Of a stretch of DNA of 64,000 bases, positions 48,437 to 49,919 are shown one piece after another (positions within the stretch are counted from its first letter, which is position 1; every line of letters begins with the position of its first letter). The position numbers were made by a program, and so were the translations under genes. The notes below the pieces were generated by a model. The model saw only the letters and a program-made list of their open reading frames with translations, searched no databases and was not told where the DNA came from. The DNA is taken from the NCBI RefSeq assembly GCF_018977255.1, contig NW_024704751.1, positions 16,492,001 through 16,556,000 on the forward strand. The letters are read 5' to 3'. Source of the stretch: Callorhinchus milii (lineage: Eukaryota).

Positions 48437-49919
48437 GAATGCAAAAATAATATTGTACCTATTTCTTGATCTTGATGCAGTAAATCCAAATAAACCTTTT
48501 GGAAGCTTTCAAGGCTAATGCTGGATAAATATTCATTGCTCACTCGCATCAGAGCTTTTGCAACCTCCGCCAGGGTTTGGCCTCCGTGCTTACAGAGGTC
48601 TTCCAGCTCCTGCAGCCATCCTTTATTTGTCGGACACCCGGAACTGGTGCAGAGAGTGGGTCCCATCTCCAGCTCTGGCTTCAGCTGCTGTAGTAATGGC
48701 CTAATGTCACCTTCACAAAGACATCAAACACAAAAACCTCAACGTTTCGTAAGAACATAAGAATTTGCTGAGCGAAAGGTCCATCCATCATCCAAGTCGC
48801 CTTCCATCGTCCTGGCAGTCGCTTGACATGTCTTGTCCCAAACAACGTATTGTATTCTGAGATATTATTTCCTAACAGAAAACTATGTAATTTGTTCTTG
48901 AAAGAATTAACACTTTCTGCTTCCACTGTGGGGTCAAGAAGCTGTGGTGTCTGTGTCACCATCGCGGTGAGGGTTGAGGAAGTGGTTGGGAAATCTGAGG
49001 GCATTCGCACAGAATCGAAGCGGAACAAAGTGCTTTGTTCAATTTCATTTCATTTCCGAACAAACGCAATGAATGAGAAATATCTCCATCGCCCCCTCCC
49101 CCCCCACACCCCTACCCCCACCCCCACCCCCCACACACACACACCTGGGACTACACTCTGTGCCAAACCAGGTCACTCTGCCCCCCATCCCCACCCCACC
49201 CAGTGATTCCTTCTGCTTTGCTTCTCGTAACTAACTCCTGGTCTCAGCCTTACCTCCACCTGCTCACACTCCCTCCCTCCCCCCTCCATCCCTCTCTCTA
49301 TCCCTCTCCTCCCCTTCCCCCCTCCCTCCCTCTCCTCCCCTCCCTACCTCCATCCATCCCTCCCCTCCCTCCCTCTTCTCCCCTCCCTCCCTCCATCCAT
49401 CCATCCCTCTATCCTCCCTCCCTCTCNNNNNNNNNNNNNNNNNNNNNNNNNNNNNNNNNNNNNNNNNNNNNNNNNNNNNNNNNNNNNNNNNNNNNNNNNN
49501 NNNNNNNNNNNNNNNNNNNNNNNNNNNNNNNNNNNNNNNNNNNNNNNNNNNNNNNNNNNNNNNNTCCCTCCCCTCCCATCCCTCTATCCCTCCCTCTCCT
49601 CCCTCCATCCATCCCTCTCCTCCATCCCTCCCTCTCTCCTCCCCTCCCTCCCTCCCTCCCTCCCTCTCCCCTCCCCTCTCCCCCCCCCCGGCAGCCACTC
49701 ACCCTGTGCTGTGTGCAGTTGCTGGAGGCAGCCGATGACTCCGGTCTCCAGGGAGTCCATGAGATCGATCCCCACCGACAGATACCCCGAGTCCATCGAT
49801 TCCCAATCGCAGTCGTCCCCGTGTGTGAGGGTCAGTTTGGCCCCGAGGCCGCGCCCCCCCGACCCGCTGTCCTCCCGCCCGCACTTGGTCCTCTCTAACC
49901 GGACACGCGCCGTCGACAT
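39695..49919 (-). CDS. Unnamed multidomain NLRP1/CARD8-like FIIND-CARD protein (degron - PYD-like - Death - ZU5[CARD insert] - UPA - PB1 - CARD), about 1036 aa
   Basis: 16 GT-AG exons splice into one open frame of 3111 nt: 49919-49703, 48710-48459, 48291-47947, 47869-47805, 47297-47117, 46741-46361, 45914-45830, 45189-44981, 43807-43683, 43237-43072, 42968-42730, 41855-41727, 41392-41233, 40869-40732, 40597-40508, 40023-39695 (TAG). All phases are compatible. Minus-strand AATAAA at 39464-39459. Confidence 0.85.
40508..40869 (-). CDS. Two exons of the unnamed gene encoding a PB1-like domain
   Basis: [76 protein letters not shown]: Lys on strand beta1 and OPCA-like YKEEGD. Confidence 0.72.
41233..45189 (-). 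CDS. FIIND (ZU5+UPA) exons of the unnamed gene, with a CARD-like insert
   Basis: LGLVY...AGPAFDL...LFLPKY (ZU5 N-half), [15 protein letters not shown]...[16 protein letters not shown]...CLLY...FHLI (cleavage region), YRL...[24 protein letters not shown] (UPA end). Confidence 0.82.
42200..42551 (+). mobile_element. tRNA-derived SINE, longer subfamily, diverged
   Basis: B-box remnant, gtaggaacccagttgttagttgattggcaga segment, (TTA)n tail. Confidence 0.75.
43955..44250 (+). mobile_element. tRNA-derived SINE, longer subfamily, diverged
   Basis: GGTTCAATTCC B box and shared body and tail. Confidence 0.75.
44501..44811 (+). mobile_element. tRNA(Ala)-derived SINE with an L2-like tail, full-length copy
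   Basis: A box TAGCTCAGTGG, TGC anticodon-like loop, B box GTTCAATTCC, tail gcgctatatca..tgcaagga(TTA)n. Near-identical to the copy at 57439. Confidence 0.9.
45445..45700 (-). mobile_element. CR1-like LINE 3' fragment
   Basis: [16 protein letters not shown]...F..E.DRFL and tail homologous to 51800-52030. Another fragment near 48756-48950. Confidence 0.75.
46130..46340 (+). mobile_element. 5'-truncated SINE copy
   Basis: Shared body: caatccacgactgtttgtggg...aattggctgccg...actttacag. Confidence 0.72.
46361..46741 (-). CDS. Death-domain exon of the unnamed gene
   Basis: [69 protein letters not shown] matches the DD pattern W..lAR.LgFS..dIe.i......eq...mL..w....G..at...L...L...gR. Confidence 0.82.
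46800..47087 (+). mobile_element. L2 LINE 3'-end fragment
   Basis: [16 protein letters not shown]...LKTFLF with tail aaatgcaagttgttgttgtt. Similar fragments at 20650-20895 and 61140-61410. Confidence 0.78.
49427..49563. other. Assembly gap inside a C/T-rich low-complexity tract (49270-49690) in intron 1 of the unnamed gene
   Basis: N run flanked by CCCT/CCAT repeats. Confidence 0.97.

What the first reader, a model, noticed from the sequence alone, without database searches (positions are those of the whole stretch)
49776..49805. IkB-like beta-TrCP phosphodegron (DSGYLS) overlapping a caspase-type ESMD|SG site at the sensor's N-terminus
Seen: residues 40-48 of exon 1 read ESMDSGYLS, in a low-complexity N-terminus with Lys12 and Lys28 upstream. 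Known: DSGxxS is the SCF-beta-TrCP degron phosphorylated by IKK in IkB-alpha (DSGLDS). ESMD|SG is the caspase-3 prodomain cleavage sequence (recalled). FIIND proteins are activated by degradation of their N-terminal fragment. Inference: kinase signalling (e.g. IKK), or pathogen effectors that target IkB-like degrons, could trigger functional degradation and release UPA-PB1-CARD. Caspase cleavage at D43 could disarm the degron or create a new N-terminus. This would be a new input for an NLRP1/CARD8-type tripwire.
Basis: partly seen in the sequence, partly recalled or inferred. Interest (0 to 1): 0.85.

Follow-up and report, generated by a model that had tools for sequence, protein, structure and literature searches.

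The report
Conserved destruction tag on shark adaptor
A short motif matching the classic 'destroy when phosphorylated' tag is conserved at the front of an unstudied death-domain protein of chimaera and sharks; it likely lets kinases trigger destruction of the whole protein, while the self-cutting site that the proposed alarm mechanism would need lacks several key residues.

Summary
The motif is real: ESMDSGYLS, aa 40-48, in exon 1 of an intact 16-exon gene encoding 1035 aa. All 3 full-length shark orthologues found keep S-x-D-S-G-[FY]-x-S near the N-terminus, while only 3 of 31 flanking columns are invariant. The paralogue clade lacks it. This supports a beta-TrCP phosphodegron (about 0.7). 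The extra invariant Ser41 suggests a YAP-like CK1 relay (S41>S44>S48); IKK fits only S48. The caspase reading is weak: P4 varies (E/N/N/D). The tripwire reading is weakened. The FIIND fold is real, but the equivalents of CARD8 H252, E279 and F296 are replaced throughout the family. Shark orthologues carry S-H-S (F296H cripples CARD8 cleavage), and 3 of 4 have also lost the H270 equivalent. The window protein keeps H680 and S707 but has Cys at P1. The protein also has a death domain, a probable death fold inserted in ZU5, PB1 and CARD. Most likely the degron controls turnover of the whole adaptor. Expression and phosphorylation were not tested.

The parts
49776..49793 (-). DSGYLS, candidate beta-TrCP phosphodegron (D43-S48)
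   Evidence: kept as DSG[FY]xS in P0005, P0006, P0007
49797..49799 (-). Ser41, invariant, three residues before Ser44; candidate priming site for CK1
   Evidence: invariant in 4 of 4; CK1A matrix weight 100 for pS at -3; YAP S381/S384/S387 precedent
49836..49838 (-). Lys28, candidate ubiquitin acceptor 15 residues before D43 (Lys12 at 49886-49884)
   Evidence: Lys at -11 in two orthologues, none upstream in the third
49703..49919 (-). exon 1 (aa 1-72), predicted disordered to about aa 48
   Evidence: identical in P0162
47117..48710 (-). exons 2-5 (48710-48459, 48291-47947, 47869-47805, 47297-47117): helical region aa 73-353, family unassigned; death-effector-domain-like lead only
   Evidence: no convincing Pfam hit; Atlas score 0.82, lead only
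46361..46741 (-). exon 6: death domain (about aa 389-482)
   Evidence: Pfam Death E 0.0044, below cut-off; ankyrin-G DD Z 11.5, rmsd 2.2, 91 aligned
44981..45914 (-). exons 7-8 (45914-45830, 45189-44981): first half of ZU5; K573 stands at the place of CARD8 H252
   Evidence: paralogue model matches NLRP1 ZU5 (6x6c_E Z 8.1)
43072..43807 (-). exons 9-10 (43807-43683, 43237-43072): helical bundle of about 95 aa inserted in ZU5, probably a death fold (CARD/PYD-like)
   Evidence: pLDDT 75-82 over aa 601-650; paralogue model matches PYD/CARD structures at Z 5.3-7.2; insert HMM best hit to a CARD at E 0.0045
42955..42957 (-). His680, equivalent of CARD8 H270; Gln in 3 of 4 shark orthologues
   Evidence: 27 residues before S707; alignment columns
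42874..42882 (-). S705-C706-S707, the degenerate FIIND SF|S site (S-H-S in all 4 shark orthologues)
   Evidence: Pfam FIIND E 0.0008, below cut-off
41233..42968 (-). exons 11-13 (42968-42730, 41855-41727, 41392 or 41389-41233): end of ZU5 and UPA
   Evidence: paralogue model matches rat NLRP1 FIIND, Foldseek E 8.7e-7, Z 14.4
40508..40869 (-). exons 14-15 (40869-40732, 40597-40508): PB1 domain (about aa 850-929)
   Evidence: MEKK3 PB1 Z 9.9, rmsd 2.4; Pfam PB1 in 3 of 11 members
39695..40023 (-). exon 16: C-terminal CARD (about aa 938-1025) and stop
   Evidence: Pfam CARD E 1.6e-9; CARD8 CARD Z 15.8, rmsd 1.2

Best explanation
The conserved S-x-D-S-G-[FY]-x-S motif is likely a genuine beta-TrCP phosphodegron that would send the whole, probably uncleaved, death-fold adaptor to the proteasome, likely acting as a signal-driven off switch rather than as a tripwire. 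Shown: the motif, its selective conservation, the domain layout and the replaced FIIND residues. Inferred: an upstream kinase, or CK1 itself reading the acidic/Ser residue at -3, phosphorylates S41. CK1 then adds S44 (pS at -3) and S48 (pS at -4), possibly with IKK on S48. SCF-beta-TrCP binds pS44/pS48 and ubiquitinates a nearby Lys (K28 here). With little or no break in the FIIND, the CARD is destroyed with the rest. That would either end a CARD/DD/PB1 scaffold signal or remove a CARD decoy, IkB-style.
For: Motif columns S41, D43, S44, G45 and S48 are invariant in 4 of 4 orthologues (5 of 8 columns, against 3 of 31 flanking columns; Fisher p 0.004), and position 46 is always aromatic. Orthology has 100/100 support. 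The pattern matches the DpSGXXpS consensus and its beta-TrCP contacts (PMC13097077). The motif is near the N-terminus in a region predicted to be unstructured. Two beta-TrCP D-domain loci exist in this genome. CK1A weights: pS at -3 100, pS at -4 10.8, D/E at -3 about 3.3 (PMC9876800 supplement); -3 of S41 is D/E/E/S; YAP precedent. FIIND: CARD8 needs H252, H270, E279, F296 and S297, and F296H is severely defective (PMC3210808); NLRP1 F1212A is listed as cleavage-deficient (PMC7483925). Here the H252 equivalent is K/S/T, the E279 equivalent F/L/V, and the F296 equivalent C/H/L in all family members. Of 4 shark orthologues, all have H at P1 and 3 have H270->Q. 0 of 28 other FIIND segments have C or H at P1.
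Against: There are no binding, phosphorylation or expression data. Only four species have an N-terminus, and the three sharks are related, so this is close to one chimaera-versus-shark comparison (flank identity 6/33 to 7/41); the aligner also favours the motif. S705 and S707 are invariant in 11 of 11 aligned rows and the following Pro is kept in 10 of 11, which may mean cleavage is still selected; however, 19 of 75 local columns are invariant anyway. The window protein keeps H680. 7 of 28 other FIIND segments have L/M at P1 and lack the Glu, so natural FIINDs tolerate change; whether those cleave is unknown. Stegostoma has no upstream Lys. The current RefSeq version of this gene (XP_007893193.2) is only the last 192 aa, and both S. 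canicula models lack the N-terminus, so annotation support for exon 1 is uneven.
Confidence: 0.5

Rival explanations
1. Tripwire: the FIIND still self-cleaves at S-C|S, and phospho-triggered beta-TrCP degradation of the N-terminal chain frees UPA-PB1-CARD to nucleate an inflammasome.
For: The FIIND fold is closest to NLRP1/CARD8 and the CARD is closest to CARD8. S707 is invariant; H680 is kept here and in Stegostoma; S-P follows in 10 of 11 rows. Functional degradation works from N-terminal degradation plus a FIIND break (PMC7483925).
Against: The H252, E279 and F296 equivalents are lost throughout the family. Degron-bearing shark orthologues carry the F-to-H change that cripples CARD8, and 3 of 4 lack the His. 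The clade with the better-preserved site lacks the degron. A probable death fold is inserted in ZU5 just before the catalytic strand.
Confidence: 0.2
2. The motif is kept mainly as a caspase site (x-S-[LM]-D|S-G), with cleavage removing the N-terminus; the degron match is incidental or secondary.
For: P3-P2' are conserved; ESMD|S is the caspase-3 prodomain site, and phosphorylation of the P1' Ser hinders processing of caspase-3 (PMC11442631); Stegostoma has DSLD|S.
Against: P4 is E/N/N/D. The conserved aromatic at P3' and Ser at P5' lie outside what caspases mainly read (established knowledge) but are what beta-TrCP reads. Cleavage would remove only about 20 residues in sharks.
Confidence: 0.12
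3. The motif is conserved for another reason (helix cap or a different phospho-binding site) or by chance, and is not a beta-TrCP degron.
For: Few independent lineages; a predicted helix starts at aa 49; many DSGxxS matches are non-functional (general knowledge).
Against: All four defining positions plus the aromatic residue are kept against about 17-18% pairwise flank identity; roughly 1 in 1000 if sites were independent.
Confidence: 0.13
4. The degron drives partial proteasomal processing that stops at a folded domain and releases a C-terminal fragment without FIIND cleavage (p105-like; recalled analogy).
For: An N-terminal degron followed by several folded domains; a Gly-rich stretch at aa 18-26.
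Against: The Gly-rich stretch is upstream of the degron and absent in all 3 shark orthologues.
Confidence: 0.05

Closest known systems
beta-TrCP phosphodegrons (IkB-alpha DSGLDS, claspin DSGQGS; YAP S381-primed degron)
   Same: Exact DSG-aromatic-x-S consensus in a predicted disordered segment; a Ser three residues before the first degron Ser, as in YAP; an upstream Lys in 3 of 4 orthologues.
   Different: It sits on a FIIND-CARD protein. No ankyrin repeats and no LATS-type basic motif before S41. The kinase is unknown.
CARD8 and NLRP1 (FIIND-CARD inflammasome sensors)
   Same: ZU5-UPA fold with Ser at the cleavage position; C-terminal CARD most like that of CARD8; unstructured N-terminus.
   Different: No NACHT or LRR. 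It has an extra helical region, a death domain, a probable death fold inside ZU5, and PB1 between UPA and CARD. SF|S is replaced by SC|S or SH|S, and the H252 and E279 equivalents are lost. I found no report of a beta-TrCP degron in NLRP1/CARD8 in the listings.
Uncleaved ZU5-UPA-DD scaffolds (UNC5B, ankyrin-B)
   Same: ZU5-UPA module with death-fold domains (Foldseek E 1e-3 to 4e-3); may likewise be uncleaved (their uncleaved state is recalled).
   Different: The fold and sequence are closer to the FIIND of NLRP1; the DD lies before ZU5; the protein ends in PB1-CARD.
Caspase-3 prodomain site ESMD|S
   Same: Identical P4-P1' in the window protein.
   Different: P4 is not kept in orthologues; no homology to caspases.

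Membership tests
beta-TrCP phosphodegron | DSGxxS consensus | tested here: met
   DSGYLS, DSGFAS, DSGFVS, DSGYLS
beta-TrCP phosphodegron | Conserved above its flanks in orthologues | tested here: met
   5/8 against 3/31 invariant columns, 4 species
beta-TrCP phosphodegron | Lies in an accessible, disordered region | tested here: inconclusive
   No secondary structure and pLDDT about 23-26, but the alignment has 11 rows and the model is poor overall (mean 47)
beta-TrCP phosphodegron | Acceptor lysine shortly upstream | tested here: inconclusive
   Lys at -15, -11, -11; none upstream in Stegostoma
beta-TrCP phosphodegron | Both serines phosphorylated; phospho-dependent binding and turnover | not testable with these tools
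   Needs experiment; kinase weights only
NLRP1/CARD8-type self-cleaving FIIND sensor | ZU5-UPA (FIIND) fold followed by CARD | tested here: met
   Pfam FIIND in 11 of 11 members at E up to 5, best 1.7e-6; paralogue model matches NLRP1 FIIND; CARD
NLRP1/CARD8-type self-cleaving FIIND sensor | Nucleophilic Ser (CARD8 S297) | tested here: met
   S707 invariant in 21 of 21 rows
NLRP1/CARD8-type self-cleaving FIIND sensor | Phe before the Ser (F296) | tested here: not met
   C in the window, H in 4 of 4 shark orthologues, C or L in paralogues
NLRP1/CARD8-type self-cleaving FIIND sensor | His equivalent to CARD8 H270 | tested here: met
   H680 in the window; but Q in 3 of 4 shark orthologues
NLRP1/CARD8-type self-cleaving FIIND sensor | Supporting residues H252 and E279 | tested here: not met
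   K573 and F689 in the window; never H or E in the family
NLRP1/CARD8-type self-cleaving FIIND sensor | Actual autoproteolysis and caspase-1 activation by the freed fragment | not testable with these tools
   Needs experiment
Caspase-3-type cleavage site | Asp at P1, small P1' | tested here: met
   D|S in 4 of 4, but required by the degron anyway
Caspase-3-type cleavage site | Conserved acidic P4 | tested here: not met
   E, N, N, D

The most novel reading that the evidence does not exclude
A cartilaginous-fish inflammasome sensor that self-cleaves through a non-canonical S-C|S site and is fired by a host kinase relay writing an IkB-type beta-TrCP degron. It would couple NF-kB-style signalling, or microbial attack on such degrons, directly to release of a UPA-PB1-CARD fragment, with a death fold inside ZU5 as a built-in brake.
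Probability: 0.18. Interest if true: 0.82.

Novelty: new variant of a known kind. Interest (0 to 1): 0.52.

Why it matters
The E3 recognition features of FIIND sensors were named as an open question in a 2020 review (PMC7483925, passages). Here is a FIIND-CARD protein with an explicit, conserved, textbook degron, so both outcomes can be tested with a few point mutants. If it cleaves, it is a kinase-programmed tripwire. If it does not, it shows a FIIND-CARD sensor lineage turned into a signal-degraded adaptor. The family (two clades, found here only in cartilaginous fishes) also has a layout I did not find described: DD, a death fold inside ZU5, PB1 and CARD.

Tried and rejected
Exon 3 alone found no longer relatives (weak search). 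RNA: no RNA holder listed on record; run X1 held 0.37 of the words but its type is only guessed, and no reads were laid, so splicing and expression remain untested. Exon 1 has no paralogous match in the genome (second hit E 4.6 in simple repeats) and no meaningful PDB match. A profile search added no further orthologues, and no rays or skates were found (only the best 7,998 candidates were scored). The search of 1.84 billion representatives gave long matches only to cartilaginous-fish proteins; the rest were CARD or FIIND-only hits. The full-length model was poor (pLDDT 47), and Foldseek gave nothing at E <= 0.001. The FIIND model is of the paralogue (L004), not the window protein. The DED reading of aa 60-345 is only an Atlas lead under 0.9; HMM scans of that region against fetched proteins gave nothing. 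TBK1/IKK-epsilon on S48 was considered: -2 aromatic and +3 aliphatic fit, but +1 is Ala in 3 of 4, which TBK1 tolerates poorly (PMC3408500). A GSK3 chain from downstream was rejected, as +4 of S48 is D/A/G/G; GSK3 on S44 after S48 remains possible. The ESGYNI upstream of paralogue L004 is not a DSGxxS and lies beyond a stop. P0019's DSGIFS is at background rate. No complex prediction was run: it cannot model phosphoserines. Literature searches listed nothing on this family. One search showed 15 of 1,099 papers, so absence is not proven. Earlier findings: none shown.

Full report
Observation. The finding lies on the minus strand, in the first coding exon (49919-49703) of a gene between a ZDHHC-type gene and a GPN-loop GTPase gene (neighbour names recalled from their translations; not tested). 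A 15-exon GT-AG model gave 993 aa without a stop, with ESMDSGYLS at aa 40-48 (49802-49776) and Lys at 12 and 28. The stored protein P0162 (XP_007893193.1, labelled Callorhinchus milii, 1035 aa) equals this model over its first 755 and last 237 residues and adds an exon starting at 41855, making 16. The current version of that record is only the last 192 aa, so annotation support is uneven. Splicing could not be checked with reads. Two paralogues on contig C1, intronless across the region that aligns, stay alignable across the exon 1/2 junction region, which supports the end of exon 1 as coding. One DSGxxS is weak evidence alone: about 0.01 expected per protein, 4 in the six frames of the window, and 2 in 72,211 residues of 146 other proteins.

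Conservation. Using the 1006-aa paralogue frame as query gave 9 proteins, all from sharks. A profile search gave the same 9, and the search over 1.84 billion representatives gave long matches only in cartilaginous fishes. A tree of 12 rows puts the window protein with Scyliorhinus, Heterodontus and Stegostoma proteins at 100/100, apart from a shark paralogue clade and the C1 copies; the window's branch is long. All three full-length orthologues carry the motif at D19-D21: NSLDSGFAS, NSLDSGFVS, DSLDSGYLS. The S. canicula models lack the N-terminus and were left out of this count, as were shorter isoforms; one S. torazame isoform starts downstream of the motif. None of the 5 paralogue sequences scanned has a DSGxxS. 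In the four-species alignment, 5 of 8 motif columns are invariant against 3 of 31 ungapped flanking columns (Fisher p 0.004). Pairwise flank identity to the window is 6/33, 7/41 and 7/39. The sharks are related and the aligner favours the motif, so the p value is generous.

What the conserved letters say. The invariant set is S41, D43, S44, G45 and S48, with an aromatic residue at 46. This matches the DpSGXXpS consensus, whose two phosphoserines and Asp make the shared contacts to beta-TrCP (PMC13097077; part 1 of 3 of the text read). The genome has two beta-TrCP D-domain loci. A caspase site explains it less well: P4 is E/N/N/D, although ESMD28|S29 is the caspase-3 prodomain site and phosphorylation of that Ser hinders processing (PMC11442631, passages). 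S41 is not needed by beta-TrCP. It is three residues before S44, as S381 is before S384 in YAP, where it primes CK1 (PMC11545309, passages). In the kinome atlas, CK1A weights pS at -3 by 100, pS at -4 by 10.8 and D/E at -3 by about 3.3; IKK-beta weights F/Y at -2 by 2.2 and pS at -4 by 2.0 (PMC9876800, two rows of one supplement, shown in part; two other supplement files were too large to read). Position -3 of S41 is D/E/E/S, and position -2 of S48 is Y/F/F/Y. A relay S41>S44>S48 by CK1 therefore fits all four species, and IKK could act on S48. IKKs prefer aromatic -2 and hydrophobic +1 (PMC3408500, passages). No full kinase ranking was computed.

The host protein. Pfam finds CARD above its cut-off, and FIIND, Death and PB1 only below it. 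The full-length model is poor (mean pLDDT 47), but its confident parts match the CARD8 CARD (Z 15.8, rmsd 1.2, 86 aligned), the ankyrin-G death domain (Z 11.5) and the MEKK3 PB1 (Z 9.9). A model of the paralogue's FIIND region (pLDDT 67) matches rat NLRP1 FIIND best (E 8.7e-7; Z 14.4). It shows a helical insert inside ZU5 that aligns with PYD and CARD structures at Z 5.3-7.2. That is a middling score for a helical bundle, but it agrees with a weak HMM signal: best E 0.0045 in a CARD-rich set, against 0.27-5.9 for four other regions. Residues 73-353 stay unassigned.

Can it self-cleave? Functional degradation needs a break in the FIIND (PMC7483925, passages). In CARD8, S297, F296, H252, H270 and E279 matter, and F296H is severely defective (PMC3210808, passages and section 8). 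An alignment with 8 conventional FIIND proteins maps these to S707, C706, H680 and F689. K573 maps to H252 by the LP-H motif and its 18-residue spacing. So the window keeps two of five, Stegostoma keeps two but has His at P1, and Heterodontus and both Scyliorhinus keep only the Ser. Among 28 FIIND segments in other fetched proteins (one false pattern hit dropped from 29), P1 is F in 21, L in 6, M in 1, and never C or H. Of 3 conventional FIIND exons read in this genome, 2 have F and 1 has L. Against this: S705 and S707 are invariant in 11 of 11 rows of alignment A3 and Pro follows in 10 of 11, although 19 of 75 nearby columns are invariant too. The 7 L/M cases show that natural FIINDs drift, with unknown effect on cleavage. 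The telling pattern is that the degron is kept where the cleavage site has decayed most, and is absent where His and S-C-S-P survive.

Mechanism and verdict. I put a functional beta-TrCP degron at about 0.7. Given that, whole-protein turnover of an uncleaved adaptor (0.5 overall) is more likely than tripwire release (0.2). Whether destruction ends a signal or lifts an inhibition cannot be told from sequence. Every step after the sequence facts is inferred. The degron is a known kind. Its host is a FIIND-CARD variant that fails two defining residue tests for the NLRP1/CARD8 self-cleaving class, so I do not file it there. Five literature searches (listings only) showed no description of the family or of a beta-TrCP degron on a FIIND protein; the library lacks most subscription papers. 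PMC11760013 was seen as abstract and outline only and is not relied on. Novelty: new variant of a known kind; interest 0.52.

Noticed in passing
window 43807-43072 (aa about 580-672): A probable CARD/PYD-like death fold is inserted inside the ZU5 half of the FIIND throughout the family; I found no description of such an insertion.
   Followed up: partly
L004 3753-6773 (-) and L005 3526-7041 (+), G000:C1 about 29.55-29.56 Mb: Two nearby paralogues on opposite strands, intronless over the aligned region (retrocopy-like). L004 has a 1006-aa open frame preceded by an in-frame stop; L005 is broken by a stop and a frame change. Their FIIND site reads S-L-S-P.
   Followed up: partly
window 48710-47117 (aa 73-353): A conserved helical region of no assigned family; Atlas top hits are death effector domains (0.82, lead only). 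If true, the protein would carry DED, DD and CARD folds together.
   Followed up: partly
P0004 and P0005 (S. torazame): The degron-bearing gene and a degron-less paralogue have consecutive accession numbers and the same longest-contig length, suggesting neighbouring genes.
   Followed up: no
L008-L014 (G000:C11 17.32 Mb; C8 9.75-9.78 Mb): At least four conventional FIIND genes elsewhere in this genome; of three cleavage-site exons read, two have F-S and one L-S.
   Followed up: partly
window 4794-16805, 24542-26468, 29958-, 55383-55844, 60613-60999: Neighbouring genes that read like ARID1A, PIGV, a ZDHHC palmitoyltransferase, GPN2 and GPATCH3 (names recalled from translations, not tested); the FIIND gene sits inside this conserved block.
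   Followed up: no
window 40732-40869: The PB1 has a partial acidic (OPCA-like) E-E-G-D stretch in the window protein that is basic in the shark orthologues.
   Followed up: no
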